A stretch of DNA of 64,000 nucleotides, taken from assembly GCA_964106645.2 (NCBI GenBank), contig OZ067040.1, one strand, 5' to 3'. Below are positions 7,137 to 60,611 of this stretch, piece after piece. The stretch's first letter is position 1. Each line of letters begins with the position of its first letter. The position numbers were made by a program, and so were the translations under genes. The notes beneath the pieces were generated by a model. It did no database searches. It had not been told where the DNA came from and saw only the letters and a list, made by a program, of their open reading frames with translations. The DNA is from Podarcis pityusensis (Eukaryota).

Positions 7137-7518
7137 CCATATTTTTCGCCCTATAGGACGCACCGGCCCATAGTACGCACCTAATTTTTTGGGGGGGAAA
7201 TAAAGGGGGGACACCCGAGCTTCCCCCGACCCCAGCCCCCAGAACAGGCAGCTCTCCGCAAGCCGTGGGAGCCCGGCGCCGGGTCCCACGGCTTGCGGAG
7301 AGCTGCACGAAGCTAAGCCTGGGCGCGCTGCGTCTCCCCGCTGTCCCCCAGCTTGTGGGGCTGGCAGCAGGGAGAAGCGGGCTTCTCCCCGCCGCCAGCC
7401 TCCAAACCAGGTCGGGGGATAGCGGGAAGGCGCGCTGCATTCGCCCCATAGGACGCACACACATTTCCCCTTCATTTTTGGAGGGGAAAAAGTGCGTCCT
7501 ATAGGGCGAAAAATACGG
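7137..7518. mobile_element. Tc2/pogo-type MITE, family P, copy A (complete)
   Basis: TIR CC(A/G)TATTTTTCGCCCTATAGGACGCAC / GTGCGTCCTATAGGGCGAAAAATACGG, TA TSD, repeated subterminal TAGGACGCAC motif, palindromic GC-rich interior. Confidence 0.9.
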
Positions 7519-7600
7519 TAATCTAAGAAAAATGCACCATTTAAGTTGGCTCTATCCTGCTGATATGCAGCTATGTATCAGGTAAGCCATTTTTAAATTG

Positions 7601-7736
7601 AGACCCTCCAAAGGTCCATATTTTCCAGGAACAGTTGTAGATTTACAGAAGCCATCCTGGTTTCTGATTTGATGCCAGAATGTCCTGCTTTTCCTTAGGA
7701 CGTCCTATTTTCATTGGAGAAATGTTGGGGGGCATG
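7601..7736. mobile_element. Short non-autonomous DNA transposon (probably hAT)
   Basis: Imperfect TIR AGACCCTCCAA / TTGGGGGGCATG. Direct repeat TAAATTG at 7594-7600 and 7737-7743. Confidence 0.6.
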
Positions 7737-8864: not shown

Positions 8865-10802
8865 CAAAGACTGACAGTGGATTTCCAAGCAGTCAGATCC
8901 CTACTACCACATTTGTCAAGCAAAGAAGCTGAGACCTACCTCGTGAGTTGTGGTTCCTCCTCACTGCAGTGGGAAACAAACTTTAATTAACACTGCTACT
9001 ATAAAAACATCCTACAAGAGCATGCCTCAGAATGGTCCTAATCTGTTCAGGGGTTTCTCCCAAGCCTCTGGAGCAGATCTGGAGGGGGCAGGGGACATGC
9101 AGGGAGAGAAGAGGGAGAGGGCACCTGTTGCACAGGTTGAAACCAACATCATCACCCTGTCTCTTTCTCTTCATGTGGATCATGCCCTCCACCAAGCACG
9201 CACTTTCACCCCAATCATTACCAAAATCCACATGAAGCTACTCTGACAGTTGGAATAAAACAGCAACAAAGGTTGGAAGCCCTCTGATCAATATACAGTA
9301 TATTTTAAAATAACCATTTTTTATTGTTTATATACTCTCAGCTCCCCGTCTTGTCCTGAACTCCCATCTCAGGCCTTCAAAACCTGCCAAGAACTTAAAG
9401 TGAAACAAAAAATAATTTACTTCTGGAAAATTAATCCACTCTTGAATTGAGTGCAGTGCAAGCAGCTAAAAAAGAAAAAGAAAAAACACCCTAGTATTCA
9501 AAAACCCTGCATGTATAGAACAAGTAACACCCTACTGTTCCCTAATGCAGATGACTCCCCATGAAGCAGAAAAAAAGGTCCAGGATTGCGAAGTGACCAG
9601 AATACTCTGTTCTGTCAATGGTCTTTTCATAGAATTCAGCTGCACCCTTATACCCACTTACTTAAGAGAAAGTCCCATTCAACACAATTGGCTTCACACA
9701 GAAATAAAAAACAGCAGCATATCTCCAAGGACTTCTGCAATTGGAGAAGGGAAACAGTGTCATTTCTGTTCCTCCTCCATGGCTGCCCTCCTGTTCCCAA
9801 CAGCAGCAGTCTGAAAGATGCTGTTGGCTGCATTTCTGAGCGCCTTGAGGATGGGGCTTAGGGGTCTCATTGCAATGATGACACTGTGATTGACGGCCTG
9901 GTGCCCACATAGCTCTCCAGAACTAGCAGCCAACAGCCTCACCCAGACGAAGTTACTGGATAGGTGGCAAGCTTCCTGTTGGAACCTGGTATTCTCTTAT
10001 GTACTAGGAAAAAGCCTCTAAATGCCCCAGTGTAGTTATGAGGCTGGTCTGAGATTACCATACTTGCAGTGGATCAAGGCATGGATCTTTGCCCTGCAGC
10101 TGGAACACAACATGCCCATACTGAAGCATGATGCTGCAATCCAGCTAAGGAAATCACCCATGTAGCACTTGTTTGCACATGCTGTTTCAAATTCATCAGA
10201 TATACTGGCCTGAGCTTTGTACCCCTTCCCAAAAAACATATTGGGCTGTGTGAGAGAGAAAGGAATGGTGTTAAGTTTTTGTCACATAAGAAGCAAGTGG
10301 TACAATGGGCTCAAGCCATGTGCTCTTTTATGTGTCACAAATGTTATAGGCTGGCTCTAATGGTGTGACAAATACTTTGCAAAAAGAGCTGAAATCTAAC
10401 TAGTTCATACCTCCTATGGCAGCTTCCAAATATGTCACCTGATTATGTGCTTAAAATTAAATTGGTATTTTCCCCATATAAGCATAAAATATTCTTTTCT
10501 GAACGAAAATCTTAAAAGGAAGTTTTGAATGTATATTCAGCTTACTTGGCCCAAGATACAGTGAGCCACTGAGAAGTAGTGTTTACCACTGTGTACCCTG
10601 GCATCAGTCTTCTTCCTTTGCAGCTGCTATTTACCAGACAGTATTTGTACTGAATGTTGCTGGCAGGAAACGTGGTCTGCTAATACTGAGAAGGACTGAG
10701 AAATTTTCACACTGAGTGCTGCTGCTGACTGCTTAGAAGTATTCAGATCAGGGATAGTTCTACAATAGCATTGTACTACAGCAGGTTCAGAAGAAGGGAA
10801 TA

Positions 10803-11043
10803 CAGTGGTACCTCGGGTTAAGAACTTAATTCGTTCTGGAGGTCCGTTCTTAACCTGAAACTGTTCTTAACCTGAAGCACCACTTTAGCTAATGAGGCCT
10901 CCAGCTGCCACTGCGCCACCGCCGCACGATTTCTGTTCTCTTCCTGAAGCAAAGTTCTTAACCCGAGGTACTATTTCTGGGTTAGCGGAGTCTGTAACCT
11001 GAAGCGTCTGTAACCTGAAGTGTCTGTAACCGAGGTACCACTG
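10803..11043. mobile_element. Tigger-like MITE, family T1
   Basis: TA-CAGTGGTACCTCGGGTTA ... TAACCGAGGTACCACTG-TA. Confidence 0.92.
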
Positions 11044-11352
11044 TATACTCAGTGGCCTTTATTGCACTCATCCTTTAAGTGGGGTGGGTAGGACTTGTCC
11101 CTTCTGAATACATTTTTGGATGACTATTTTAGATTTTCTGTATTGCTGATTTTATATCTCATTTTACTTTTTTGTTATTTCTACTTGCTAGTCGCTTTGG
11201 GAACCTGAGTGCAAAACTGTGAATAATAATAACAACAACAACAATCATTTTTACTGTAAGATAAAAAATACACAAGGTTATATATTTTACTGGGTCACGT
11301 TCTTCTAGTGTAAAAATACAGTATGTGTGTTTCCAAATTATATGGAATATTT

Positions 11353-15206: not shown

Positions 15207-15209
<3 letters not shown>

Positions 15210-15634: not shown

Positions 15635-15818
15635 CAGGCGACCTCCCCATTTACGCAGGTTCCAGATGTGCACCACTGTGCATTGATCCGAACCCAGAAG
15701 TGACCCAAAAACGTCACTAAAAGGGGTGGGATGGGGCAGGGGCGGAACAGGATGTTTGCAGGCATTTTCAATGGTGTTTCAAATTTACACAGCGTAAATT
15801 GGGGGGGGGGGTTCGCTA
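15635..15818. mobile_element. Tigger-like MITE (second family), degraded
   Basis: TA-CAGGCGACCTCCCCATTTACGC ... GCGTAAATTG(n)TTCGCTA-TA inverted termini. Confidence 0.65.
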
Positions 15819-15820
15819 TA

Positions 15821-16036
15821 CAGTGGTACCTCAGGTTACATACGCTTCAGGTTACAGACTCCGCTAACCCAAAAATAGTACCTCAGGTTAAGAACTTTGC
15901 TTCAGGATGAGAACAGAAATCGTGCTCCGGCGGTGCGGCGGCCCCATTAGCTAAAGTGCTGCTTCAGGTTAAGAACAGTTTCAGGTTAAGAACGGATCTT
16001 CGGAAAGAATTAAGTACTTAACCTGAGGTACCACTG
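15821..16036. mobile_element. Tigger-like MITE, family T1 (opposite orientation to 4907)
   Basis: TA-CAGTGGTACCTCAGGTTA ... TAACCTGAGGTACCACTG-TA. Confidence 0.92.
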
Positions 16037-17856
16037 TACTTCCGTTTGGTGTGTGTTGTGTTACTTCTGGGTACTAAACAGTGTTGGTTCTAGGTTACTA
16101 TTGCTATGTAAAATATTACATAAATCTATGTTAGACAGATAAAATCATAAGGCTATAGGGCAGTCACATCTTTAAGAGAACCAACCACAACATCACAAAG
16201 TTATGAATAATTTAACAGCTTGCTCATAACTCTTTCTCATACTGGATGCCACAATAGCACTGTGTGTTTTCTCCTTTTAATCCTGGGGACAGAACTGGAA
16301 ATAACTGTTTCACTTTTTAAAGAAAAATGTGGAGAGAACAGCTATTGCTTCTTTGACTCTGTAGTCCTTGACGCAACCTGTAATCTGTTCATCACTCAAG
16401 AGACTAATATAATTGTCCACAGAATTCTTCCTGCACTCCATCTTAAGACTGTAACTTTTAAACTGCAGACATTAGAACGTTAACAACATGCCCTATTTCT
16501 TCTCCTCCTCCCTCTTGTTATGTTTAACTTCCAACCTGAAGCATACTCACAACCCTGGGACCTTTCTAAAGTTGTTTTTAATAAAGGTATTATTAGCATA
16601 AAGCAGCAGTGGGGAACCCTCCTGTTCACGGGCCTATTTATTTAGACCCATGAGACTGCTTTCAATGAGCCACACCCGCCCACCCAATATGTGACATCAG
16701 ATTGACATGCCCTTCAACTAGCCCTGCGCCCTCATGTCTCCACATACAGCATTAATCTTTGGTAGAAAGGAACCGTGATGGAACATGGGGGCAGCTCACT
16801 TGAATAGGGCATAAGCGTTCTCTCACATCTAATCTGAGGGATATGCCTTAGCTGTGGCGCAGGCAACACAAGTCATTGCTTGCACTGTGCTGTAGCTAAA
16901 CCCCATCCAGAGGCGTGGATCATTTGACACATTTCCATGTGTTCACACTTGGGAATTTCCTTGACAATTTATACACTTTCTTCTTGTATTTGTTTGTATA
17001 GTGAAGGCCAAAAGCCCGAATACGATTTTGCCAGGTGGGGAAAGAGTGCAGCGGATATGGAATAGAGTGCTTATTTTTGTGACATTTTCCCCTTAACAGG
17101 CCTTTAAAAAAGCACCTGGGAGCCAGCCAGCCTAAACGGTTGGCAGTGTTAGAATGTCTTTCATAGCCAGCTATGGAGTGACTTCGGGGGCAAAAATAAA
17201 GTTTATAAGCCATTATAAAAGATCCACTGTCCCCAGTTTATTCAGAGGAAATCTTTAAGCTCTGCAATTTTAAAATAAAGACCTGCCTAAAATTGAACTT
17301 GAATAACAGTGAGTCTCGAGATGAATCAAATGCAGCAAGATTTGTTCTACATAAGTTCATAAGTTCACTCTAACAGGCTGGAAAAGCCAACCGTGCTGAT
17401 CAAACATGACTAATAATCACACAAGAGATTGATGGGCTTGTTTTTCTTATGGAGCATGTGAGGTAATTCCCTGACAATTAAGTTTCCATTGTACTGCCAA
17501 ATAATACTAAAAGCTTTTTGCATCGTTGGCTTTCATGTAAAACTTCACAGCAAAGCAGCCAGCACTGATTCTGCAGTCTAATACTTTCTTAACTTACCTG
17601 TAGTTGCTGTCACAACCTCATTCCAAGAGGGGCATGGATATCTCAGATGGTTGTAGGGTAGGCATTTTCTCTAGAGGTCAATCCAGGACATTGCTGCTGC
17701 CACAGGAACCATTCTTTAAAATCAATAATTCTGAAAACAACAATTTGTTAACTTTGTGAAAATCCTGTTTCCATCAGGGACTTTCTTCAAACAGCTAGTC
17801 TTTATACAACAGCCTTTATAATACACATGAATTCACATGTTCCCTGACTGTAAAAC

Positions 17857-19470: not shown

Positions 19471-20243
19471 TTCATTAGTAATAATAATTAGTAACTGTGC
19501 TTTTTTCGGGGGGGGGAAGGTTGGGGAACGCATCACAAATTTTGTTTATTTATTTAGTTGTAAGTTTTGTGGCAACATGCCATATTTTATTAAACAATTC
19601 TTGTACAGTTGGAATAATATGTAAATGCACTTTAGCTGCTCTTTTGGCTGCAGTTAGTAAGACAAAATTATAGTCTTCTGGTCACACCATATTTTTAAAG
19701 ATAATGCAGAAGAATTTGTCAATGACCTTGTTATGTGATAACCACTCATTTCTGTATATATGATTTTTAGAAACTTCCATCATATATGTATATAGTCTGG
19801 TGCATTCCCTCCTGATTTCCAGCATATATCACTATCACTTGGGTATATCTCTGCCAAATGATGCAGGGTCAATTACCAACCATATAACATTGTATAAAGA
19901 AAAATTATGTTCATGCAGGGCAATTAAACTTTATTAGTGATAAATATTTATTTCCAACTAATATTCAGAGTACCTCTGCTTCCAACAGCAGAAGTAGAAT
20001 ATATCGATGGTACATATTCACAATGGCTATATGTTAGCTCCTGGATCAGAGGTAACACGCTTTTGAATACCAATGAATTGTGGACAAACTGCTGAAAGAA
20101 AGCCCATTACGGCTTCTGACTCTATGCAGTGTGCAACCACTGCCTTCTGGTGTCCTCTGAGAGTTTCTCCAGCCTGACTAACCCTGAGAGGAAGGCTAAT
20201 AAGTACTCCATCAGTAAGGAGCTTTGTGATCAGACAAATGGTA

Positions 20244-20587
20244 AAGGTAAAGGTAAAGGGACCCCTGACCATTAGGTCCAGTCGCTGATGACTCTGGGGT
20301 TGCGGTGCTCATCTCGCTTTACTGGCTGAGGGAGCTGGCGTACAGCTTCCAGGTCATGTAGCCAGCGTGACTAAGCCGCTTCTGGCGAACCAGAGCAGCG
20401 CACGGAAACACCATTTACCCTCCCGCCGGAGCGGTACCTATTTATCTACTTGCACTTTGACGTGCTTTTGAACTGCTAGGTGGGCAGGAGCTGGGACCAA
20501 GCAACGGGAGCTCACCCCATCATGGGGATTCAAACCGCCAACTGATCGGCAAGCCCCAGGCTCTGTGGTTTAGACCACAGTTCCACC
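20244..20587 (-). mobile_element. Sauria SINE (Squam1)
   Basis: (AAAGGT)n tail at left and reverse-complement core. Flanked by a ~91-bp direct duplication (20153-20243 / 20588-20679). Confidence 0.93.
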
Positions 20588-23574
20588 TCCTTTGAGAGTT
20601 TCTCCAGCCTGACTAACCCTGAGAGGAAGGCTAATAAGTACTCCATCAGTAAGGAACTTTGTGACCTGAAAAAATGGTACACCTGTTTAAATTGTTCCAC
20701 TTACCATAGCAGAATGACCAAATCAGACATTCAAGCTACAAAGCCATTGATCTCCATTCTGCTTATAGACAGGATCTTAATTACTGTACTGCTTTTTGCT
20801 TTTTGCTTTTTAGTGGTTAACATTTTCAGATGAAGCTATTTTGCATCTATACATCTCAGAGACAACAGTAGCATTTGGAAAAGGGAAAATTGAATAAGCT
20901 TTAATATAATCAGGGACTTTACTGAGGTTTGTGTGGTCTGCCACAAGTCACTGGTTCTCAGGCAGCTCTGCATGAGCTGCATAATTTTTCCCTTCAAGGC
21001 ACATCTTTTGAATCCCAAACCATTTGCCGAGAAGACAAATCTTTCAGCCTATATGCACTTCAACAGATAAAGAGTAACCAAACGTTCACCAGGTAAATTG
21101 AAATAGAGAGAGGAGCTCATTTGACATGACCCATGTCCCCCGAGAAAACCAACCAAAAATGTGGATGAATTAAGCTTTTTCTTTCAAAATCAGTTAAAGT
21201 TCATTATTTTTTAAAAACCCTCAGGGCCATATTGCAGTAGTGCAACATTAGTAATCACAGGGTGCTATTTAAAGTCTGTTTCACTCACAGGATTAAACTG
21301 TATGGTAGAAATATTCCAAAACTTTCCCAGGACGACTGCTGTGGTAAAAGCTAGCACAAGAGTTGCATTGTATTATAGAAATACCAAGACCTGTAGCAGA
21401 GTATTTGCTCTTTCTCCACCCTAAGCAGGTGCTTTGCGGATTTGGACATTTGTTGAGCAGATGGGGTGTCATCTTAATGGTGCATCCATTTGATGGGGTC
21501 TTAACATGAGATTCTCAGTGTCTGAAATTATATGGGCATTGGACTTAAAGTGACTCCTTTTTCCTTGAGATAAATATCCTGTTAACTAGCTTGCCAGAGA
21601 CAGAGAACTTCTATAATAAGAACATACTTTGTTTTCATGGGTTTTTTATTATTATTCTAGACATCACACATAAAACATCTTTCACTTAAATATATTTGTT
21701 TCTACAAGGAAGTTTTGTTTTATTTTTTAAAAAAGCATAATGATTCTAGGAACTTCTTAAACCTTAAATTGGTAAGGCCCCGCAGCCTGGCAGGAGGTAA
21801 TCTAAATACACACATGAGTACTGGTAACTTGCAAAATAATGTTCTTTATGATGTAAAACTCTTATTCTGGATTTGAATCCAGGTCAAAGATGAAGACTCC
21901 AAGCTGCATGTTCACATCTGTAGTTTCTTGACCACATATAAATTATGTGTAGAAACAGTTGTGTAGGTTACAAAAAATGTTTGTAAATTTAAGTACTCAT
22001 TACATGCAGAGTTACATAACTTTCTATATTTCCCACTCTGTGCTCCAGATCTCAGCATTGGGTCACATGACATGTTTATGATTTGGGGTTGAATGTCCAA
22101 GCCATGTGCTGGCGTGCTGGGTCATGAACATGTGGATGTTGTATATGTTGTGCATGACAAAGGTGGAAGAAGGTAGGGTTGCCATACTTATATAAGCACC
22201 CACTGTCCACCCATCCTCCTTTGATCATTGGCACCCATGTACCCACCCCTTGGGACCAAGCAGGAATCTGTGTGTGGGGTTTTTAGCCATTCCACAGTGT
22301 GTCTTGCTGGACTGGTTACAGTGTGAATACTGTGTTTAAACAGGTTAATTTGCCAGGAAAATTCAGGAAAGAAAGAAAGCCTGGTAAGGTCAACTAGGTG
22401 AACCCCTTAGGCACCTTTGAGAGTGATAGGAAGCTCCCAAGTCCTGCAGCTCAGAGCTAGGGGACCCAGGACAGGATATGAACTGCATTTGGAACCATCT
22501 TCTCTCATCTGCCTGGAGCTATGGGCCCCCAGGGTGATTATGAAAGTAGGTCTCCCTATTCACCTTAACGGTGCAGTTTGGGGAAGGGCACAGGCTGAAT
22601 TACATGATCACAGTGGGACATAGTCATATAGCATGTGATCATGATTTTTAACGCCTTTGTTTTTTACTTTGTGGCTTGATATTCCTTTTACGGATGCAGA
22701 GCTTATGCATCTACACTTTTTGAAAATAAGTATTCACAGCTGGTTGCACAGAACTGAATGTCCTCCATTAGTGAGGCACTTGTAGAAACATCTTGCAAAT
22801 ACCGGTACATGTAAGTACTGTATATACACAATACAAAAGTGGGGAAAGTCAGCATACTTGGTAGTGAGTTCTTTGCCATGTCTTTCAAAGCATGACTTCT
22901 GCATGACTCAAAAGCACATGAAAGCTACCTAAACAACTGAAATCACACAATCAGCAGACGTGTTAGAGCCTTGTAACCCTGAGAGATTTTAATTCAAAAC
23001 TAGCAAAGCTGGGATCAAGTCAAGACACACAAAGGAATGGCAATATCCCAAGCATGAATACATTTTAATTGCAGAGTATATGTGAGCTAGTAACAAATCC
23101 TTGCCCCCTGGCAGCTGTAACTGAATGGATCCTGCCCTGCTGAAACATACTGTGTATGAGAATTTGTCTTCCTTTAGCTTCAGGCTGCCCCTCTGGCAAC
23201 TGTCATCCACAATCATATCAATTACATAAAACTAGATTTGTCCAACCATCTTGTCTATACACTGACAGTCTAATAATGTGACCTGCTGTATTTCTCTAGC
23301 TCTATTTCTAAGGGAGCTTGAATCATCACAGCTTTGCACATACATTCATGTACACCCACAGACTTCTTCCGTGATGTCATGCTCTACTGAAAAATGCAGT
23401 CAAAACTCGCTTCATGGCTTGCCATGTTCTGCAGTATTCATTACAGACACATTATAATGTGTAATGACTTGCACAGGTACAGCCTAAGGGAAAAACTAGT
23501 TAACTCAAATAGTGGAATACTAGCACACAACACAAGATGCTGTATTGCTGAGTTTAATTAGTATATGTAAAATT

Positions 23575-24405
23575 AATAGAATTGTAGTTTGAAGGGATCC
23601 TGAGGGTCATCTAATCCAACCTCCTGCAATGTGGGGGTCTCAACTACATCATACATGACAGGTGGTCATCCAATCCCTGCTTTAAACCTCAAAGGTAGGA
23701 GAGTCTACCACCTCCTGATGGAGCCCATTCCACTGTTGAACACCTCTTCCTGATATTTAGTTGGAATCTCCTTTCTTGTAACTTGAATCCATTGGTTCGG
23801 GTCTTAGCTTCCGGAGCAGGAGACAGCAAGCTTGCTCCATCTTCCATGTGACAGCCCTTTAGATAGTGGAAGATGGCTATCATATGTCCTCTCAGTCTCC
23901 TCTTTTCCAGGCTAAACATATCCAACTCCCTCAAACATTCACCCTCTTCTGCACGTGTTCCAACTTGTCAATATCCTTCTTAAATTGAGGTACCCAGAAC
24001 TGGTTACAGTACTCCAGATGTGGTCTGACAAAGACAGAGTAGAGTGGTACCATTACTTCCCTTGACCAGGACACTATACTTCTGTTGATGCAGCCTAGAA
24101 TAGCATTCACTTTGTTTTGCTGCTGCATCACATTTTTTACTCATGTTAAGCTTGTGGTCTACTAAGACCCCTATATCCTTTTCACATGTACTATTGGCAA
24201 GCCAGGTGTCCTCCACCTTATATTTGTGCAGGTGGCTTTTCCTGCTTAAGTGTAGAACCTTACACTTGTCCCTGTTGAAATTCATTTTGTTAGTTTTGGC
24301 CCAGTTCTCCAATCTGTTAAGGTCATCTTGAATCATGATTCTGTCTTCTGCAGCACTGGCTACCCCCTCTCACTTTGGTGTCATCTGCAAATTTGATGAG
24401 TAATT
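23575..24405 (-). mobile_element. CR1 LINE 3' fragment (RT C-terminus and 3'UTR)
   Basis: Minus-strand ORFs give [37 protein letters not shown] and FSLEKRRLRG. KFADD-coding sequence at ~24380. ATTCT-type tail. Confidence 0.93.
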
Positions 24406-32426: not shown

Positions 32427-32560
32427 GGTATAAGCAAACTCAGCCCTCCAGAGGTTTGGGGATTACAACTTCCATCATCCCTAGCTAATAGGACCAGTGG
32501 TTAGGGATGATGGGAGTTGTAGTCCCAAAACATTTGGAGGGCCGAGTTTGCCTATGCCTG
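32427..32560. mobile_element. Palindromic hAT-type MITE (related partial copies at ~54905-54985, 57712-57771, 59235-59350, 63903-63945)
   Basis: Whole element is an imperfect inverted repeat (GCAAACTCAGCCCTCCAGA...TGGAGGGCCGAGTTTGC). Flanks CTTTGGA / CTTTGGAC. Confidence 0.82.
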
Positions 32561-34732: not shown

Positions 34733-34963
34733 CTGTGGGACCTCAGGTTACAAATGCTTCGGGTTACAAACGCTTCAGGTTACAGACTCTTCTAACCCAG
34801 AAGTAGTACCTTGGGTTAAGAACTTTACTTCAGGATAAGAACAGAAGTCGCACGGAAGCGGCGGGAGGTCCCATTAGCTAAAGGGGTACCTCACGTTAAG
34901 AACAGTTTCAGGTTAAGAACGGACCTCCAGAACGAATTAAGTTCTTAACCAGAGGTCCCACTG
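34733..34963. mobile_element. Tigger-like MITE, family T1
   Basis: CTGTGGGACCTCAGGTTA ... TAACCAGAGGTCCCACTG-TA. Same interior as 15821. Confidence 0.88.
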
Positions 34964-34967
34964 TATT

Positions 34968-35102
34968 CATAGAATTGCAGAGTTGGAAGTAATCACAAGG
35001 GTCATCTAGTCCAACCCCCTGCCATGCAGGAATGTTTTGCCCAACTTGGGGCTTGAACCCACAACCTTGAGATTAAGAGTCGCATGCACTATTGACTGAG
35101 CT
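34968..35102 (-). mobile_element. tRNA-Lys(CTT)-derived SINE with CR1-type 3' tail
   Basis: Reverse complement of 35039-35102 is AGCTCAGTCAATAGTGCATGCGACTCTTAATCTCAAGGTTGTGGGTTCAAGCCCCAAGTTGGGC (tRNA-Lys-CTT-like). It is followed by GGGTTGGACTAGATGACCC...ATTCTATG, matching the CR1 tail at 23575-23630. Confidence 0.85.
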
Positions 35103-37560: not shown

Positions 37561-38750
37561 AAGTGGAGAGGGGGCTCGAAAGCTACCCAGCCTTGGCTGT
37601 GAGGCTGGTGGCTTTGACATCTCCTGAAAGTCATTCTTGGGGCGACTCAGTGCAAAAGTTCCTCTTTTGCGGAGCAAAACTTAAGAAAGGAATCCACGGG
37701 TTGTTTACGGAGAAGGATCCAATGGGGTTTCTTGAGCCTGTGCTAAGTCGTGAGCCCTTTACGACCCAAATTGCCTCCCCCCCCCCCCCTTGAATAGCAC
37801 CTGTTGTAAAAAGTTAGTCAGATGAAATCAACATTACATTACAAGCACCTGCTTTACTATTCTGCTCCCTGTTGGTTTGCTTGTCCCGGCTATTCTTTAG
37901 GCTTAGGTCTCCATTTGTTGGAAGAATTGAATGTTGAGGTGGTGCTGTTTTTGGCTTTTTGGACGATCACTTTCATCTCAGCCTAATCACGGTTTCTGAA
38001 TATGATTATGAGCAATGTGCCTGCTTGTAATCTGTCAGGTATCCTTGGGGATTTAATTTCAGTGGTAAAAGTGTAATTTCCACCAGTGAATTTTGCATAC
38101 CTATCAAATAGATACTGTATTGCATGATTGAACCTCCTTTCCCAAGCTGATGTGTAAATTCTGCTACTTTTTTCTCTGCCTCTTAATGTATGATGTATTG
38201 AGGAGAACCTGTGGTTTGTTAAACTTGTGCAGTTTCAACTTTGCCTGAACCAATATTTTTAACTGTGACTTTGGATTTCACACACTTTTTTTTAAGAGAG
38301 AGAACTGTAGAGTGATTTATCAGGTCTTCTATGGTGTATGCATGCAGAGAATTAAATATTTCTAATACTCCTTTCATGTTGCTCATTCTCTTCCTCCCTC
38401 CCCTGAGGTTCAATAATTCAATAGCTACGGCGGATCAAAAATGTTCAGCTACACCATACATGCCCTGAATTTAATTAGTTCAACTACTTTAACCACACCA
38501 GTTGCGGAATGGGGCTAGACCTGACTAATGGAAAACTTAACTCTTTCAGTATTTTTAAAGTGTTTATTGGCAGACAAGCAAAAGGAGAGTAGAACTGTTG
38601 TGATCGAAACTGTTTACTGACAGTTAACTGTAAGAAAAATAATAAGAAAAAGAACAATAATTGGATTGCCCCCCCCCCCAGTGTTTCAAACTGTTAGAGT
38701 AGTATTTAGCCTTGTGACCTCAGGCTAATTAAATTATATGCATTCCTAGG

Positions 38751-44702: not shown

Positions 44703-45049
44703 GGGACGCGGATGGCACTGTGGGTTAAACCACAGAGCCTAGGACTTGCCGATCAGAAGGTCGGCGGTTCGAATCCCGCGATGGGGTGAGCTCCCGTTGC
44801 TTGGTCCCTGCTCCTGCCAACCTAGCAGCTTGAAAGCACGTCAAAGTGCAAGTAGATAAATAGGTACCGCTCCGGCGGGAAGGTAAATGGCATTTCCGTG
44901 CGCTGCTCTGGTTCGCCAGAAGCGGCTTAGTCATGCTGGCCGCATGACCCGGAAGCTGTACGCCAGCTCCCTCGGCCAATATAGCGAGATGAGTGCCGCA
45001 ACCCCAGAGTCGGTCACGACTGGACTTAATGGTCAAGGGTCCCTTTACC
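44703..45049 (+). mobile_element. Sauria SINE (Squam1), full length
   Basis: GGGACGCG start, A/B boxes, CCTTTACC end. Perfect 12-bp TSD TAAGCTTTCTGC. Confidence 0.96.
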
Positions 45050-45776
45050 TAAGCTTTCTGCAGATGATGATGTTGAAAACTGAGTAATGCAGTAGAAGGC
45101 AACAAGTTGTCTTACTTAAGACCAAGAAAACGAGTCAATGGCAGAGGTAGGATTTCAGCCCTAAAATGAAACACCCAAAATAAATGAGTCGTTTCAAATG
45201 CTTTCAGGGTGCACTGGAACTCAAACCATGGTGTGCACACTGGTGCCCTTGGGTTGAATCATTCAAAACTGTAGGGTGGTGGAAGAGGAAGGGCAACATT
45301 GTTCTCCTAACCTACAACATTGCTTCCCCCATCTCGCCCCCTCTTTCCTTGAGGAGGAAACTACTGGATTCTGACTTTGAATGGCTCCAACTATCTTGGT
45401 TTGTCAACCTGTTTAGAGGTGTAAAATGCATGGAAACCTGAAAGCTATAGGGTAAAAATTTTACATTCCTCCACAGAAAAAAAATACCCCCAGAAAGATT
45501 GGAATATATGCCATATATGCAATACTCATCACACACTTAGATATGCTTACTCAGAAGTAAGGTCCACAGTGTTCACTAGTAAGTGTGCTTAGGATTGTTT
45601 GATTATTTACAAACCCAAACTTACTACAAGTACATGAAATGTTTCGTAGTATTGTACTGTTAGGTATTTCATGAAATATAAAAGTATAAATGCTATAGTT
45701 TTATTCAAACAATGATAAAATATGCCTAGCATTAGTGATAGACTACAAGCTTCTGTGCCCTATGGTCCCCAATTAG

Positions 45777-46127
45777 GTAAAGGTAAAGGGACCCCTGGCC
45801 ATTAGGTTCAGTCGTGGCCGACTCGGGGGTTGCAACGCTCATCTTTCTTTATTGGCCGAGGGAGCCGGCGTACAGCTTCTGGGTCATGTGGCCAGCATGA
45901 CTAAGCCGCTTCTGGCAAACCAGAGCAGCGCATGGAAACGCTGTTTACCTTCCCGCAGGAGTGGTACCTATTTATCTACTTGCACTTTGATGTGCTTTCG
46001 AACTGCTAGGTTGGCAGGAGCAGGGACCGAGCAACAGGAGCTTACTCCATCGCGGGGATTCGAACCGCTGACCTTCTGATCAGCAAGTCCTAGGCTCTGG
46101 TTTAACTCACAGCGCCACCCGCGTCCC
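45777..46127 (-). mobile_element. Sauria SINE (Squam1), full length
   Basis: Reverse-complement copy ending CGCGTCCC. 15-bp TSD ATGGTCCCCAATTAG (45762-45776, 46131-46145). Confidence 0.96.
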
Positions 46128-47336: not shown

Positions 47337-47845
47337 CCGTATTTTTCGCCCTATAGGACGCACCGGCCAATAGGACGCACCTAGTTTTCAGGGGGGGGAA
47401 ATCAAGTAAAAAAATATGATCCCCCCCCCCCGCAGCTCTGGGAGCAGTGGACAGGTTGCACGCAGCCTGTGCGCTACTCCAAGACCTTCTCCCTGCTTTT
47501 GTGGGAGGTGGCGGAATTCCCCCACCTCCCGCAAAAGCCCACAGGAGCCCAGCGTGACTCCTGCGAGCTTTTCGACCAGGAAGGAGAAGGGACTGAAACG
47601 GCCAGTCAGTCCCTTCTCCCTCCTCGAGGAAAAGCCCCCAAGAGCGGTGCGCTCTTTAAAGGGTGTGCGGCTCCTGCGGGCTTTTCTAGGAGGTGGGGGA
47701 ATTCCCCCCCCCTCGTAGAAAAGCCAGCAGAAGCCACGGAGCCCATTTAACGAGTGCGCGGCTTTTGCCTGCTTTTGCAGGAGGTGGGGGAATTCCCCCA
47801 TCTCCTGCAAAAGCCCACAGGAAGGTTGGAGAGTAGCGGGAAGGC
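47337..47845. mobile_element. Tc2/pogo-type MITE, family P, copy B (right end missing)
   Basis: TA-CCGTATTTTTCGCCCTATAGGACGCACCGGCC..TAGGACGCAC left end as in copy A. Hairpin interior. Stops at AGCGGGAAGGC, where copy A continues into its right TIR. Confidence 0.88.
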
Positions 47846-47926
47846 TATAGAGTGAGATGAGCGCACAACCCTAGAGTCTGTCAAGACTGGCCCGTACGGG
47901 CAGGGGTACCTTTACCTTTTTACCTT
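47845..47926 (+). mobile_element. 5'-truncated Sauria SINE 3' end (different subfamily)
   Basis: GAGATGAGCGCACAACCCTAGAGTC...GGGGTACCTTTACCTTT, homologous to but diverged from the other four SINE tails. Confidence 0.8.
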
Positions 47927-52000: not shown

Positions 52001-52955
52001 ACACAGTAAAGCAGTGGTGCTGTGAACTCCTGCCCCCAGACCCTTTCACATATATTGTTTATTGGTTGGTTGAATATAAAATAAACACTTGATTAGTTAA
52101 GTGATTGAACAAGACTACTGTAATGTGGCCTAGTTGCTATTGGGCCATAAACCTCAATATATCTGCCTTCCTACCTCCTAAGGCCCTCAGAGAACAACAG
52201 AAAAAAATTAATTGATTTACCAGTCATAGTTATACTTTTGTGAATTATTCTAACTCCTCGTACTCATGTTATTTAAATGCGGCCTTTTTGTCTCTCTACT
52301 TCCAGAATTGTATAGCCCCTTTGACTTTGTAAGCTGAAAAGCTAAACAGAATGTCATTGTTTATATCCTTTAGGCAGTAACACCCAATTTTGTAGCAGTT
52401 AAGGATTTCCACAGGAACTCTCTTTCTGGAAGTGGATGGATTGCAGCTAGCAGAGCTGTAATGCACAATTCTTGTTTGTGTACCCTTTCTGTTCTGCTAA
52501 TAAGAAATTTTTATGTGATTTGGATAATAGGCGTTTTCGGAAGCTGCGTTTCATGACGTTGGTAGTTAAGGGAACATATTTCTGCCATAATCGGTTTGAC
52601 TGATCTTGTGCCAGAGCCTTACCAACAACATGGAGTTGTTGTTAGAATGAAAAGAGTGGGATAGAAATATGATAAATCTGTTTTCTGATTAAAAAAAATG
52701 ACTGTAAAAACCAGTCCACGTTTACTTTGCATGTATATCTTACTGGAACCTGAGGTCTTTGGAATTAGGCTGGGTAGCAAGTAATCTTGCACCCTGCATT
52801 GTAAATAGCTGGCTTCATCTGCAAAGTGCATAACACCAGTGGACACAAACTACTGTAGCCTTAAAGCCAGTTAGGAATGTACAGTACAGTTTGAGGAAAT
52901 TATTTACATATGTCAGTTTTCTGTAGTTGCACACTAATCATAATACTTCCCAGTA

Positions 52956-53049
52956 CAGTGGTACCTCGGGTTAAGAACTTAATTCATTCTGGAGGTCTGT
53001 TCTTAACCTGAAACTGTTCTTAACCTGAAGACCACTTTAGCTAATGGGG

Positions 53050-53081
<32 letters not shown>

Positions 53082-53195
53082 GCCACCGGAGCACAATTTC
53101 TGTTTTCACCCTGAAGCAAAGTACTTAACCCAAGGTACTATTTCTGGGTTAGCGGAGTCTGTAACCTGAAGCGTATGTAACCCGAGCTACCACGG
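52956..53195. mobile_element. Tigger-like MITE, family T1, with internal (CTG)10
   Basis: TA-CAGTGGTACCTCGGGTTA ... TAACCCGAGCTACCACGG-TA. Confidence 0.92.
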
Positions 53196-54749
53196 TACAG
53201 TACACATTTTTTTGAAGCGGCACAATTCCAGAAACCAGTCTTAATCAGTTCAGCAGAGCTTGCACCCAGGTAAGTGGGGTCAGGTATTTAACCTGTGTTC
53301 TCAATATGCTTAGTATAGATCTTGATAACCAGGACAACAAATTTGTGTAGTGGTGCACCAAAGGGGGAGAAAAATTAAATTGCCTCCTTTGATGGAGAAA
53401 ACCATTAGATACAACCTGTAGGTGGGAATTCTAAGAATGCCCAGAATTGGCAGAAATGTCATCAGTTCATTTATCTTAATGAACATCACTGCACCTCCCC
53501 CCCCAAAGAAACCCCTGTAGTAGTTTGGAGAGATATCAAGATTGCTGAACCTTCCACTGGACCATAATATAATTAAAACACTTGACGTTTTCATACGAAT
53601 GTTCTTAAAAGTTTTTTTAAAAATCAGTTTTGTTCATGATTGGTGATGACTGTTTTAGTTTTATAGGCAGGTTGAATATGAGAGATACTGTATAATGCCT
53701 CTGTTACACTGTAGAATGTATGAAACTATAATAGGGATTTTTCTAAGGAATGGATCCATGTGTTCCTCAGCAGTTTACATTTCCAATCAGGTAAGGAGTG
53801 GGCGGCCCATGATGGATTCATTGATCCCATTGTATACCTTTCCCTGTTGTGCAGCTGTTTACGCCTCCAGTTAGCTGGGCACCCCAGAGAAGGGAGGCAA
53901 ATCAGCAGGTATGGGAGGAGGGGGCTGATCAAATCACATTTAGCATATGTTTTTAATGCAAGCACATCTTAAATTCCCTGACTGCATCTATCCTGACATT
54001 TCTTGGTACATGCTTTCTAACAGTTTTGACTTTGACTTTGACTTGGGCTGGAGTACTTCATTGACTTCAAAGACCTGCTATCTATAACCTGTCATGCTTA
54101 TAGATACAACAAAAATAGTGGGAGGTGTCCAGTGCTCCTTTTTTGCTTGTGCATGAAAGTTCAATTTGCACAATGAAACTTTCCCTTACTTGGTTCTTCC
54201 TTACAGCCCCCTCCCCCCACCCCGGCAGACTGTCAAAACCTGCTCCAGAAGATTGGGGGGGGGGGGGACACAGATACCCCGAGCAAATGTATGGGAATGT
54301 GTGCAGATAGGGAAGAGAAGATGTAAGCCAGAATAAGCATAGTACAGCTCAAAGCAACAATCAGTATTGCAATAAATACAAATTTTTTGTGTAGTTGAAG
54401 GCCGGATTATTAAACAACCAAACCCTGAAACTAATAAAATCATAAAGTGCTTCAGAGTTATAAAGCAAGACACCTTGCCAGCCTGCACTATCTGTAATTG
54501 TAATTGATTTTTTTATTTTACAGTTTTTTTGGTCATACTAAAACTGAAGGCTCACTAAAGATGTATACGTAGAATAAGTATTAAATACAAATCTGGCTGG
54601 AATTCTGGCTTCTTAAGAAAACTGGCCTACTGGCAGCAATAATCACATGATTCAGTCCTGAGGCAAACCAAGCAAAAACATGTTGATCTGAGTTGAGGCC
54701 TGTGTGCCAGTTCTGACTCCTTCTGGTCTGATTTTACCAGGCATGGGAA

Positions 54750-55810: not shown

Positions 55811-56047
55811 GGTACCTCTAGTTATGAACTTAATTCATTCTGGAGGTCCGTTCTTAACCTGAAACTGTTCTTAACTAGAAGCGTGCTTTTGCTAATGGGG
55901 CCTCTTGCTGCCGCTGTGCCACCGGCACACGATTTCCATTCTCATACTGGGGCAGAGTTCTCAACTCGAGGTAACTCTTCCAGGTTAGCGGAGTTTGTAA
56001 CCTGAAGCGTTTGCAACCAGAGGCATTTGTAACTCGAGGTACCACTG
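55811..56047. mobile_element. Tigger-like MITE, family T1 (left TIR damaged)
   Basis: Same interior as 10803. Right end CTCGAGGTACCACTG-TA. Confidence 0.85.
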
Positions 56048-59000
56048 TATAGCCTTTCAAGATCAATGAGCCAAATGCAACTACTGCAGACTTTCACAAA
56101 AGAACTGCTGACAATTAAGTGAGAATATAAAATGTAACTCGTACGTTTAGGCAGCACATTGGCATGTGGCAAACACTAAAGCCTCTCCTCATCCAAGAGG
56201 GGAGGTGTTGTGGGCGGGACGCGATTTCTGCATCACTCAGGGGGCATTACGCCCCCTGCCCCACTCACCTGGCTGGTGCACCACGCCCACAGGTAAGCTC
56301 CCAACCGGGCGGCTTGGAGGGGGCGTGGTTTGCAGTTTAACTTACTGCTGTGCCAGCCATTGCGCCTCATTTTCCGCCTTCTCGTCGCGAACATAAAGAA
56401 GGCATAATCAAGGGAGAGTAGAAATGGCTGTGGAGCTTGCTCAGCTCAGACTTTGATATGAGCTTCAGAGGCACATAAGACTTACCTTAAGGAAGAGGTG
56501 ACCTTTACAAGCCTCAATATTATTATTTTTACTTGAAGTATAATTGGAGCCAGAGATGAGGAATTCCAGCATCCTTGTGTGATCCCCAGAATACCCTACC
56601 TGCTTTCCTCAAAATAGTTACCGGTTAGCAGTGTTGGGTGGCACATGGTGATAGGGAAAGAGGAAGGTCTGTTCCTTTCTCCCCTTTCTTTCTAGTGACC
56701 TGGCATTCTGCATAGCCATCACTCCTCTTGCTGCCACTGGCCAGGAAGTATTTAATGGGTGCAGGGCATTTGGAGGACTCAAGAAGCTGATGGGCTAAGG
56801 GTGCTGCATGTATTTTAAAGAAAGTAATATACAGCAACTTATATACTTCTTTTTCATTATGTATACATAGACATAAACAATTCAAAGGAAAATGGAAAGG
56901 ATAATGCTATTATTGGTAAAAATGTTATTATTAATATCCTGTTTCCAGATTGTCTTGGAAAACAAGACAAGTTATTGTTTGGGCAAGCCAGTGAGCTTGC
57001 CAGTGGGTGTGAGCTTGCCATCTCTAATGGAGAACAATGAGGACAAGTTAGAAGGTATGAATGCTAACCGAGACAAGTGTAGATTTTTGTGTAGTTTACA
57101 TTTATTCTACAATAGCTTCTGTGTTGGGTATGTTAAACATGGTCTCTTCAATTGTCCAAGTTCAGCTCTGCTAGAAAAGGTTTCTGACTTTGGAAAGGTC
57201 TGTGCAGATTATTGTTGGAGAGATGAAACTTTACTACAGTACCATATATAAATTATATCCAGGTGTTTTCAGTGTAGCAATTAGAAAGAAATCTGTATCG
57301 TATTTACCAAGTCTTAGATCTTACCATTCCTGTTTGCATTTCTTATGCTATCCAAACCAAACATATGTTAGTGCAATGTAAGATCATATTCCACATAATT
57401 TTTCATGACTGGCTTTCTTATTCCGGCTGAAGTCTTAAAGATAAACTGCTAATGTTTGCAATGGCTTTCCACACAGTGACTCTTGTGTCTTGAATTAGCT
57501 CAAATGGTGTCTTTCTATTAATTAATTAATTTATTTATCTATGTATAGTCAGGGCTTAGCATGCAAAGCTTTTTACAGGAGGAATACCCTTTCTCTATTT
57601 TTTACCTCCTCTATTATGAGAAAAGCATGTCTTTCCAGCCAAGTCCAATATTTCATTTTATTATCTGTATCTTGGGACAAATGCTAGCATCGACTAGCAT
57701 GGTCCTGCTAGCTAGGGATCATGGGAGTTGTAGGCCATAAACATCTGGAGGGCCGAGTTTGAGGAAGCCTGCTTTAGCAGAAACAAAAATAGATGAAACA
57801 CTCTTCATCCAAAAATGGATGCAGAGTGGTATAGAAAGGAATATGAAATATCCAAATACAATATGAAACATAACAAGAAATTCAGTACAATTAGGAGGAA
57901 TAAAAGCTTTCAATTAGCTAAAAATACCATAATCCAAAATGACTGGACAAACAAAGGTTTTTACCTGGTGCCAAAAAGCATACCTCCCTCAAGAGGGCAT
58001 TCCGCAGTTGGGGCACCACCACAGAGAACACTCTTATTATTATTTTTTACCTATGTAATGCAATTCTCCTAAAGATGGGCACACTGAGAATGGCCTCCTG
58101 ACAATCTTAATACACAGGCAGGTTGATACAGGAGATATTTTGCTGATGGCCCGCTGGCTAATCTGTATGCATGGAAGGCTAACATTTCCCTCTTCCTCAC
58201 ATTGGCCCAACAAAGCAGCAGTAATGCACAAGTTCAAATGGCATGTAAGAATATCTCAGAACTGGTACTTGATGCACTCTAGCTTTAGATTTGCTAAAAA
58301 TATAATAACCCTTCTCTTAGAAGCAGTCTTATGATGTATAGCAGCCCTCCTCAACATCTATCCTTCCAAGAGGCAGGTTGCCCTTATCATGCTAATTCTT
58401 TTTCCACATCTAGAGATCAGATTAAAGCACTGAGGTGCCCCCACTATACATCAGATTCCCACCTTTGCCCATTTGTCAATATGTTCATGTAAACTCTAGT
58501 AGATTCTAAGGCTTGCTGATTATTGATGATTGTCCATAGCACAGGGCTCTTCCACAAATGTTCTTAAGTTAGGTTGGGCTTAAAAAACAAAAATCTGAGC
58601 CAAAGACTCTTTCTTGGCCAAGCTTATTTCATTTACTTAATGCAAGATGCCTGACAAAACGCTACTTCCTATTATCTTTAACATCAAGTACAAATGATGT
58701 TGCCAGTACATTCATCAGGCTGGTGTGTGGTGACCAATAAATCTAGCTCAGTAAGTACCAGATCATTATAACTTGTCTTTGTTATTCACTCCATTAACAT
58801 CAATCATGATGGTTGCTTCTGGTATTCACATGGTCCCAGACTAATTCTCTAGGAATTCAATAGCAATCCATCATTTATGCTGTATGGTATTATGTTGCCA
58901 AAAAATCTGAAGCATTTATAAGAAGGGAATATTCCAGTGCAAATGACAATCTCAAAAGGAAGTGTTGAACACCTGCTGTTCTGAAGTGCTATAAGTTCTT

Positions 59001-59470
59001 TACTTTTACTAGGTGTTTGCTTCTTCTCTCTTAAAATATGATTTTTTCTTTCACCTGGCTGTTTCCTCTATACTGAGCCTTGCATTCTGTGAACATGCTG
59101 TGAAACAGTATGTAGTAGCAGACAGCACATTTATTAGTTTTTATTAAAGTTTTAACTTATTTGATTCAAGAGTTGGATCAATTATGCAGTATGTCTTCTG
59201 GAAGACGTTTCTCCCAGTGAAGTGGCTCTCATTTAGCGTTTGCCAACCTGATGCCCTCCAGACATTTTGGACTACAGCTCCCCATTAGCCTCAGCTACCA
59301 TAGTCGTTGTAATCCAATACACCTGGAGGGCACCAGGTTGGCAAAGGTTGAACTATAGAATGAATTTCCGATGCAGCAGAGCTGATATTGGCAAAAAAGC
59401 TCATGTTAACAAGTGTACATATCTCCCAGGCCTGGAAACTAGATATTGTTAGTGCTGTTATTTGTGTTTA

Positions 59471-60611
59471 CCGTATTTTTCGCTCCATAGGACGCACTTT
59501 TTCCCCTCCAAAAATGAAGGGGAAATGTGTGTGCGTCCTATGGAGCGAATGCAGGCTTTCGCTGAAGCCTGGAGAGCGAGAGGCATCGGTGCGCACCGAC
59601 CCCTCTCGCTCTCCAGGCTTCAGGAAGCTATCCGCAAGCCTTGCAAGCCCGGTGGGAGTTCCCGCGGGCTCACAAGGCTTGCAGGCAGCAGCCTGCAGCC
59701 CCGGCGAGTGTCCGCAAGCCTTGCGCGCCCGGCAGGAGGTCCCGCCGAGCGCGCGAGGCTTGGGGCAGCAGCCTGTCGCCCGAAGCACGGGGAGCCCTCC
59801 GGAGGGCTCCCCATGCTTCGGGCGAGTGTCTGCAAGCCTTGCGCGCCCGGCAGGAGGTCCCGCCCAGCGCGCAAGGCTTGGGGCGGCAGCCTGTCGCCCG
59901 AAGCACGGGGAGCCCTCCGGAGGGCTCCCCGTGCTTCGGGCGAGTGTCTGCAAGCCTTGCGCGCCCGGCAGGAGGTCCCGCCGAGCGCGCGAGGCTTCGG
60001 GCGGCAGCTTGTCGCCCGAAGCACGGGGAGCCCTCCGGAGGGCTCCCCGTGCTTCGGACGAGTGTCTGCAAGCCTTGCGCGCCCGGCAGGAGGTCCCGCC
60101 CAGCGCGCAAGGCTTGGGGCTGCAGCTTGTCGCCCGAAGCACGGGGAGCCCTCCGGAGGGCTCCCCTTGCTTCGGGCGAGTGTCTGCAAGCCTTGCGCGC
60201 CCGGCAGGAGGTCCCCCCCAGCGCGCAAGGCTTGGGGCTGCAGCTTGTCGCCCGAAGCACGGGGAGCCCTCCGGAGGGCTCCCCTTGCTTCGGGCGAGTG
60301 TCTGCAAGCCTTGCGCGCCCGGCAGGAGGTCCCGCCGAGCGCGCAAGGCTTGGGGCGGCAGTCTGTCGCCCGAAGCACAGGGAGCCCTCCGGAGGGCTCC
60401 CCGTGCTTCGGGCGAGTGTCTGCAAGCCTCGCGCGCCCGGTGGGAGGTCCCGCCGAGCGCGCGAGGCTTGGGGCGGTAGCCTGCAGCCGGAAGCACGCGA
60501 GGCTTGGGGCGGCAGCCGCGGGGGGGGGGATAATTTTTTTTATTCATTTCCCCCCCCAAAAAACGAGGTGCGTCCTATGGACCGGTGCGTCCTATAGAAC
60601 GAAAAATACGG
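59471..60611. mobile_element. Tc2/pogo-type MITE, family P, copy C (complete, opposite orientation to A and B)
   Basis: TA-CCGTATTTTTCGCTCCATAGGACGCAC ... GTGCGTCCTATAGAACGAAAAATACGG-TA. The left ~80 bp is the reverse complement of copy A's right end. Confidence 0.93.
59705..60480. repeat. 118-bp GC-rich tandem array (6 full units plus a partial seventh) of paired hairpins inside MITE copy C
   Basis: CGAGTGTC recurs at 59705, 59823, 59941, 60059, 60177, 60295 and 60413. Confidence 0.97.

What the first reader, a model, noticed from the sequence alone, without database searches (positions are those of the whole stretch)
7137..60611. Tc2/pogo-type MITE family with fixed ends and interchangeable palindrome cassettes
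Seen: copies at 7137-7518, 47337-47845 and 59471-60611 share a ~27-bp TIR (CCGTATTTTTCGCYCYATAGGACGCAC), TA flanks, extra subterminal TAGGACGCAC motifs and asymmetric subterminal blocks. Their interiors are largely different, yet each is made mostly of strung-together GC-rich hairpins. A has a ~59-bp near-perfect palindrome (GCAGCTCTCCGCAAGCCGTGGGA...TCCCACGGCTTGCGGAGAGCTGC). B has GGAATTCC-centred hairpins. C has a 62-bp palindrome plus a 118-bp array. Known: CCGTA-starting TIRs with TA TSDs are typical of Tc2/pogo elements. Inference: a lineage of non-autonomous elements that builds, swaps and amplifies hairpin modules, perhaps by template switching during gap repair, and so spreads CpG-rich structured cassettes. 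I cannot tell whether it is already in repeat libraries.
Basis: partly seen in the sequence, partly recalled or inferred. Interest (0 to 1): 0.75.

Follow-up and report, generated by a model that had tools for sequence, protein, structure and literature searches.

The report
Hairpin-filled Passer mini-transposons in lizard DNA
These are small non-coding jumping elements of a known transposon family (Passer) in lizard DNA, unusual mainly because their middles are built of GC-rich hairpins that get copied, rewritten and recombined while the ends stay fixed.

Summary
The observation largely holds. A (7137-7518) and C (59471-60611) are complete TA-flanked elements with 27-bp TIRs. B has only one end; its other ~87 bp are missing and a SINE fragment abuts it. 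18 of 19 strong hairpins in the window lie inside the three copies (3.2% of the DNA).

The asymmetric ends are not novel. By eye they match published autonomous Passer (pogo DD35D, Tc2-like) elements of lizards: 72/86 nt to the Podarcis muralis element, 51/60 to the Anolis element.

The interiors are not unrelated cassettes. A and C share one hairpin; A and B share an outer arm. C's 118-bp unit is an 80-bp unit plus a 38-bp insertion that made a new hairpin. B is a decayed array of four related hairpins. Homologous hairpins differ on both arms at once, as expected from template-switch arm rewriting. Five Podarcis gene models read through further copies; two combine the window's modules in new ways.

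Verdict: non-autonomous Passer derivatives, a new variant of a known kind. Fixed ends with recombined middles and MITE-borne arrays are described; all-hairpin nested interiors were not found in 10 literature searches. Dfam/Repbase and genome-wide copies were not checkable.

The parts
7137..7518 (-). Copy A, complete non-autonomous Passer-type element (382 bp), TA on both sides
   Evidence: orientation inferred from published Passer rows
7137..7204 (-). A, 3'-type end: TIR 7137-7163 (one change, G to A in the CpG) plus direct copy of the inner TIR motif at 7171-7180
7248..7306 (.). A, hairpin H2a (26-nt arms, 96%), homologous to C's H2
7315..7322 (-). A, orphan 8-mer equal to the outer right arm of C's H1 hairpin; its partner arm is absent from A
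7330..7433 (.). A, long imperfect hairpin H1a (104 bp)
7435..7518 (-). A, 5'-type end (84 bp): TIR 7492-7518, small hairpin 7464-7489, inverted inner TIR motif 7440-7458; 81/84 identical to C's
47337..47845 (-). Copy B, truncated: 3'-type end present, 5'-type end (~87 bp with its TIR) missing
47337..47430 (-). B, 3'-type end: TIR 47337-47363, direct motif copy 47371-47380; 88% to C over 94 bp
47468..47845 (.). B, outer arms (about 47468-47495 and 47819-47845) enclosing the whole array; the right arm is homologous to A's H1a arm
47495..47814 (.). B, four related hairpins (47495-47538, 47567-47635, 47680-47724, 47771-47814; centre spacing 85-101 bp); the second has a 25-bp nested hairpin at its apex
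47847..47926 (+). 5'-truncated 3' end of a ~340-bp SINE family (75-81% to four near-full copies in the window); the name Sauria/Squam1 is recalled; not part of the element
59471..60611 (+). Copy C, complete element (1,141 bp), TA on both sides, inverted relative to A and B
59471..59554 (+). C, 5'-type end (84 bp); 72/86 nt by eye to the start of the published Podarcis muralis autonomous Passer
59562..59623 (.). C, hairpin H1c (62 bp, 31-nt arms, 94%)
59631..59710 (+). C, 80-bp unit (hairpin H2c plus linker), the shorter and presumably ancestral form of the array unit
59703..60497 (+). C, 118-bp tandem array, 6.7 copies; each unit is H2c plus a 50-bp hairpin H3 made by a 38-bp insertion in the linker; six full units differ at 1-7 positions
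60520..60611 (+). C, 3'-type end: direct motif copy 60568-60577, TIR 60585-60611

Best explanation
A, B and C are non-autonomous derivatives (MITE-like) of a lizard Passer transposon (pogo DD35D; Tc2-like). They keep the 5' end (TIR, short stem-loop, inverted inner motif) and the 3' end (TIR, direct inner motif) that a Passer transposase elsewhere in the genome would bind, and insert at TA by cut-and-paste (inferred). The interior carries no gene and is free to change. Three processes shape it. (1) Short-range template switching between hairpin arms creates hairpins, extends them at the apex and rewrites one arm from the other: the pattern is shown, the mechanism is inferred. (2) Tandem duplication multiplies a hairpin unit: shown in C and B. 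(3) Exchange between copies at shared arms, or loss from longer composites, gives different combinations in a fixed order (5' end, H1, H2, 3' end), partly nested with outer arms kept and loops replaced: inferred. Gap repair after excision is the likely setting because it copies from a related element by error-prone synthesis, but this is not shown. The hairpins are most likely a mutational by-product carried along by transposition, not a selected function.
For: Ends, by eye on published rows cut at 400 characters: C's 5' end matches Podarcis muralis Passer at 72/86 ungapped positions, and two TIR changes are mirrored in the inner inverted motif. B's 3' end matches Anolis PasserC at 51/60 and the TIR at 25/27. 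The same two end types recur in snake, turtle, frog, fish and arthropod rows. No transposase domain in 188 of 188 ORFs of 70 aa or more.

Building: the 118-bp unit is the 80-bp unit plus 38 bp, with the flanks changed so that they pair. One B unit has a 25-bp hairpin inserted at its apex.

Arm rewriting: A's H2 and C's last unit differ at 4 of 12 outer-arm positions, all 4 on both arms, 3 of them transversions, none one-sided. B units have 5 of 21 pairs with two-sided change, reached by 5 of 500 shuffles; 92.9% of cells pair versus 54-64% when slid. One two-sided change links the TIR and inner motif of A versus C.

Combination: A-C share H2, A-B share the H1a arm, B-C share the longer 3' block. 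Podarcis muralis gene models read as H1c then an H2a-type arm (P0006), H1c then an H2 variant (P0003), and a whole copy with an H1c arm, about 1.5 H1a and H2a (P0007); P. lilfordi has the 118-bp array (P0004) (control 12 of 1069 host 9-mers match).

Precedent: arm homogenisation by template switching (PMC8604942, abstract); quasipalindrome mutation during break-repair gene conversion in yeast (10.1101/2023.08.09.552703, abstract).
Against: Only three DNA copies were seen, one of them truncated. The other five are peptides from gene models, which can contain false splices or frameshifts, and P0008 shows only an end plus one arm. The A-C interior score (39) barely exceeds the shuffle maximum (37), and A-B is not significant without its position (21 of 500). 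MAFFT aligned A's H2 to C's differently and gave only 2 two-sided pairs of 23, so the 4-of-12 count depends on anchoring by hand at the outer arm. One search has only four related sequences and a structure derived from them. Several variants in C's array are CpG transitions that could strike both arms independently. No outside copy of B's modules was found (0 of 798 candidates). The peptide hairpin test was positive for P0003 (0 of 300 shuffles) but also for one of two negative controls (3 of 300), and a cruder version was not significant (54 of 1000). Differential loss explains much of the mosaicism without any swapping.
Confidence: 0.7

Rival explanations
1. All copies are deletion and duplication derivatives of one longer composite ancestor, perhaps the GC-rich 5' region of an autonomous Passer, with no exchange between copies. 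The combinations reflect differential loss.
For: Module order is the same in A, C, P0003, P0006 and P0007. P0007 holds an H1c arm, H1a and H2a together, and A keeps an orphan H1c arm. The published Podarcis Passer has GC-rich tandem repeats just inside its 5' end and was the only row holding an 11-mer of C's linker (weak, the motif was chosen after seeing the row). A turtle Passer row has a palindrome with ~90-bp arms in its 5' region (by eye).
Against: H3 and the B apex hairpin are gains, not losses. Two-sided arm differences need rewriting. Four of six short window motifs were absent from the visible first 400 nt of all rows in the Passer table. B's units resemble nothing in C.
Confidence: 0.2
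2. The hairpins are selected, for example to help transposase synapsis or excision, to promote copying, or as structured RNA or CpG regulatory modules.
For: Every interior is almost wholly paired. Two-sided changes are also what selection on structure leaves. CpG content is high.
Against: Length, number and sequence of hairpins differ freely (382 to 1,141 bp). No Rfam match in the window. Template switching gives the same signature without selection (PMC8604942, abstract). High CpG also follows from youth.
Confidence: 0.07
3. The interiors are independent small palindromic elements inserted into Passer ends.
For: B and C interiors share nothing detectable. Nested capture is described for Anolis hobo elements (PMC3014272, passages).
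Against: No direct repeat of 4 bp or more flanks any of 7 modules tested. No module occurs elsewhere in the window outside the three copies. Modules occupy the same slots in different copies.
Confidence: 0.03

Closest known systems
Passer (PS) family, pogo superfamily, DD35D; lizard members Pomu (Podarcis muralis), Zovi, Anca-PasserC (PMC9976928, PMC7386202; passages and supplement rows seen)
   Same: TA TSD, short CCGTA-starting TIR, and both asymmetric subterminal blocks (72/86 and 51/60 nt by eye).
   Different: No transposase; interior made of hairpins. The TIR differs from the Podarcis row at 5 of 27 positions, so that exact element may not be the mobilising partner.
Anolis non-autonomous hobo_AC and Tc2-related TcMar-N families (PMC3014272; passages seen, supplements not available)
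   Same: Lizard non-autonomous families with similar ends, family-specific middles and inter-element recombination. TcMar-N4 and N6 start with CYGTA/CCGTA and have TA TSDs.
   Different: hobo middles are captured TEs and genomic DNA. The word 'palindrom' does not occur in that paper. The TcMar-N4/N6 TIR sequences differ from this one.
MITEs carrying internal tandem arrays: Xenopus miDNA4 (Tc1/mariner), Xmix/Xstir, clam DTC84 (reviews PMC12628747 and PMC9659126, passages; PMC3879986, search listing)
   Same: A unit inside a MITE present once or as an array of variable copy number, as in C and B.
   Different: miDNA4 is proposed to have captured a pre-existing repeat. Here the unit's 80-bp precursor sits beside the array and the added hairpin arose in place.
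Template-switch hairpin formation and arm homogenisation (PMC10710096, PMC8604942, 10.1101/2023.08.09.552703; abstracts seen)
   Same: Single events that perfect or create stems, and two-arm multi-base changes.
   Different: Described in primate genomes and yeast genes or reporters, not as the builder of a transposon interior, in what I saw.

Membership tests
Passer (pogo DD35D; Tc2-like) | TA target-site duplication | tested here: met
   TA on both sides of A and C; B has TA at its intact end. Empty sites not seen.
Passer (pogo DD35D; Tc2-like) | Short TIR (<30 bp) beginning CCGTA | tested here: met
   27-bp TIR, 5 copies; 25/27 by eye to the Anolis PasserC TIR
Passer (pogo DD35D; Tc2-like) | Subterminal homology to autonomous members | tested here: met
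   By eye only: 72/86 to Podarcis and 51/60 to Anolis; rows are cut at 400 characters
Passer (pogo DD35D; Tc2-like) | DD35D transposase with BrkDBD/HTH_Tnp_Tc5 (defines autonomous members) | tested here: not met
   No such domain in 188 of 188 ORFs. These are therefore filed as non-autonomous derivatives by their ends, not as autonomous members.
Passer (pogo DD35D; Tc2-like) | Mobilised by a Passer transposase | not testable with these tools
   Needs the host genome and a transposition assay
MITE | Non-coding, TIRs and TSD, short | tested here: met
   A is 382 bp with both TIRs; C is 1,141 bp because of its array
MITE | High copy number | tested here: inconclusive
   3 copies in 64 kb and 5 Podarcis gene models suggest abundance; no genome count was possible
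MITE | Uniform size and sequence within a family | tested here: not met
   382, >509 and 1,141 bp with different interiors; better seen as several subfamilies sharing ends
Named Dfam/Repbase family | Match to a library consensus | not testable with these tools
Nested independent TE insertions | Own TSD around each module and free-standing copies | tested here: not met
   0 of 7 modules have a flanking direct repeat of 4 bp or more; none found outside the elements in the window

The most novel reading that the evidence does not exclude
A lacertid Passer lineage works as a hairpin factory. Repeated excision and gap repair drive template switches that build, perfect and nest GC-rich palindromes in Russian-doll fashion (outer arms kept, loops replaced by new hairpins or arrays), and recombination between copies reshuffles them. 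Thousands of such copies would record quasipalindrome mutagenesis in a vertebrate germline and seed CpG-rich hairpins, minisatellites and possibly small-RNA precursors.
Probability: 0.4. Interest if true: 0.6.

Novelty: new variant of a known kind. Interest (0 to 1): 0.4.

Why it matters
The element class is ordinary, but the interior is a compact, high-copy record of how palindromes arise and are maintained. If the pattern holds genome-wide, the family would allow the rate and rules of template-switch arm rewriting to be measured in a vertebrate, and would test whether gap repair after transposition drives it. It would also link a known transposase family to the birth of GC-rich minisatellites. 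Practically, consensus-based repeat libraries will split or miss such interiors, and five Podarcis gene models already contain translated copies, probably as annotation artefacts.

Tried and rejected
Searches that found nothing useful: TIR scan of bacterial and archaeal genomes, 0 matches. Rfam and tRNA scans of the window, 0. Pfam on 188 of 188 ORFs of 70 aa or more: 5 weak hits below cut-off, none a transposase. Protein search with A's read-through peptide at near lengths, 0 of 25 candidates, and with B's at longer lengths, 0 of 798.

Dropped or inconclusive: P0005 (1 of 3 hits) was dropped as a chance match; it gave no tblastn hit to the window. The first peptide palindrome test was not significant and failed on its positive control; the second also fired on one of two negative controls. 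One search's arm table had off-by-one coordinates and was replaced.

Rejected: B as a complete copy; nested TEs with their own TSDs; the ends as a novel architecture; the long ORFs over C as genes (all six frames are open because of the GC-rich array).

Literature: 10 searches showed no title or abstract start describing hairpin-built Passer/Tc2 MITEs in squamates. Only listings were seen for most hits, and subscription papers, Repbase reports and Dfam are outside the library. Supplements of PMC3014272 could not be read and may hold relevant consensus sequences. Passer table cells were cut at 400 characters. Viral and metagenome contig collections stayed unchecked, and no eukaryote genome collection was available.
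Full report
Observation. The TIR pattern occurs five times in the window, against none in shuffles: both ends of A, both ends of C and the left end of B. A and C are flanked by TA on both sides. C is inverted relative to A and B: A's right 84 bp equal C's left end at 81/84, and A's left end, B's left end and C's right end are 87-89% alike. B is incomplete. Its last bases align to A's sequence just inside A's right end, then the next ~87 bp are absent and the 3' end of a SINE follows at 47847-47926. The junction fits either a deletion into an older SINE (3-bp microhomology) or loss of the terminal stem-loop with the TA kept; I cannot tell which. The hairpins are real: 18 of 19 found by a window-wide scan fall in 3.2% of the sequence, and folding z-scores are -12.7 to -27.5.

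Host. The window is vertebrate-like DNA (41% GC, CpG o/e 0.31). It holds four near-full copies of a ~340-bp SINE that I recall as Sauria/Squam1 (the family is described as squamate-specific in PMC10058329, passages). Read-through peptides of the elements hit only Podarcis gene models among named hits. A lacertid lizard is the inference.

What the ends are. Passer is the DD35D family of pogo transposons, with short TIRs and TA TSDs (PMC9976928 and PMC7386202, passages). PMC7325037 reports TC2-like pogo elements in fish, gecko and snake; that TC2 and Passer are the same group is my inference. Supplement rows were compared by eye. The autonomous Podarcis muralis element (3,014 bp, 425 aa) matches C's left end at 72 of 86 ungapped positions, and two of its TIR differences are mirrored in its inner inverted motif. 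Anolis PasserC matches B's left end at 51 of 60 and the TIR at 25 of 27. Many rows show the same two end types. Rows starting with the stem-loop end lead into a sense ORF, and rows starting with the direct-repeat end lead into the antisense transposase C-terminus (motif recalled). The stem-loop end is therefore the 5' end: C is plus, A and B are minus, and B lacks its 5' end. No ORF in the window has a transposase domain (188 of 188). The asymmetric blocks are inherited Passer anatomy.

What the interiors are. In transposon orientation, A is 5' end, H1a, H2a, 3' end. C is 5' end, H1c, an 80-bp unit containing H2c, 6.7 units of 118 bp, 3' end. The 118-bp unit aligns to the 80-bp unit with one 38-bp insertion in the linker, and the flanks changed so that a 50-bp hairpin (H3) results. 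B is four related hairpins spaced 85-101 bp apart, one with a 25-bp hairpin added at its apex, all enclosed by outer arms whose right arm is homologous to A's H1a arm. A and C share H2 (0 of 500 shuffles, a narrow margin) and a colinear junction. A and B share 23 bp next to the end (21 of 500 without regard to position). B and C share no interior but share the longer 3' block. A keeps an orphan 8-mer of H1c's right arm. No module has a flanking direct repeat (0 of 7) or occurs outside the elements.

Arm rewriting. Anchored at the outer arm, A's H2 and C's last unit differ at 4 of 12 positions, each on both arms, three of them transversions. An automatic alignment placed A differently and gave 2 of 23 such pairs. 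B's four units show 5 of 21 pairs with two-sided change (5 of 500 shuffles), with the caveat of four related sequences. Within-hairpin identity exceeds same-side identity between hairpins (11.2 vs 9.3 and 10.8 vs 9.2 of 12). Template switching is known to homogenise arms (PMC8604942, abstract), to create hairpins in one step (PMC10710096, abstract) and to perfect quasipalindromes during break-repair gene conversion in yeast (10.1101/2023.08.09.552703, abstract). Some variants in C's array are CpG transitions that need no such process.

Copies elsewhere. No eukaryote genome could be searched, so I used read-through peptides. Two of four protein searches found nothing. The other two gave six distinct proteins, five of them Podarcis gene models and one chance hit that was dropped. 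Mapped to the window's modules (12 of 1069 control 9-mers match): P0006 is 5' end, H1c, H2a-type arm. P0003 is 5' end, H1c, H2 variant. P0007 spans a whole copy: 5' end, H1c left arm, about 1.5 H1a, H2a, 3' end. P0008 is 5' end plus H1c arm. P0004 (P. lilfordi) is the 118-bp array with unit-length changes. Modules thus occur in combinations not seen in the window, always in the same order, and H1a can follow an H1c arm. These are peptides from gene models, so junctions may be artefacts.

Mechanism. Shown: TIRs, TSDs, the hairpins, in-place gain of H3 and of the B apex hairpin, tandem amplification, two-arm differences and mosaic sharing. Inferred: mobilisation by a Passer transposase, template switching as the cause of the two-arm changes, exchange between copies, and gap repair as the setting. 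Confidence is 0.7. The main rival (0.2) is differential loss from one composite ancestor, perhaps the GC-rich 5' region of an autonomous Passer. The Podarcis row has GC-rich tandem repeats there and shares an 11-mer with C's linker (weak), and a turtle row has a long internal palindrome (by eye).

Known or new. Lizard non-autonomous families with shared ends, different middles and inter-element recombination are described for Anolis hobo, and Tc2-related non-autonomous families exist there too (PMC3014272). MITEs with internal arrays are described (miDNA4, Xmix/Xstir). An interior built wholly of nested, arm-rewritten GC-rich hairpins did not appear in 10 searches, which cover open-licence papers only. 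Dfam and Repbase were not testable; the family is probably present as uncurated consensus sequences in lizard repeat libraries (judgement). Verdict: new variant of a known kind, interest 0.4.

Noticed in passing
window 4896-5134, 10792-11047, 15816-16046, 34732-34968, 52951-53200, 55811-56051: Six copies of a second ~230-250-bp TA-flanked repeat (77-87% alike) with an internal 16-bp tandem unit; it looks like a Tigger-type MITE (label recalled).
   Followed up: partly
window 1337-1670, 20245-20587, 44713-45050, 45775-46121: Four near-full copies of a ~340-bp SINE with an ACCTTT-type tail, 84-95% alike; recalled as Sauria/Squam1.
   Followed up: partly
window 20153-20243 and 20588-20679: A 92-bp direct repeat (93%) flanks the SINE at 20245-20587, far longer than a usual target-site duplication.
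   Followed up: no
window 32426-32559 and 57700-57775: The one strong hairpin outside the three copies: a 134-bp palindromic repeat (62-nt arms) with a partial second copy; a separate MITE-like family.
   Followed up: partly
window 36900-37700: CpG island (o/e 0.71) with a likely first coding exon at 37436-37531 followed by a GT donor. The peptide end resembles the SASH1 N-terminus from recall, unverified; B and C would then lie downstream, possibly in intron 1.
   Followed up: partly
window 4078-4599 and 24004-24369: ORFs that look like decayed LINE reverse-transcriptase C-terminal regions (CR1/L2-like by recall); no Pfam hit.
   Followed up: no
P0003, P0004, P0006, P0007, P0008: Podarcis gene models (Ig-like, RNase H/RT, NUP42, Sushi, hypothetical) contain translated copies of this element, probably annotation artefacts; P0007 reads through a whole copy in one frame.
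   Followed up: partly
PMC9976928 Table S1, Cuora mccordi row: An autonomous turtle Passer has a palindrome with ~90-bp arms inside its 5' region, seen by eye; palindrome building may be wider in the family.
   Followed up: no
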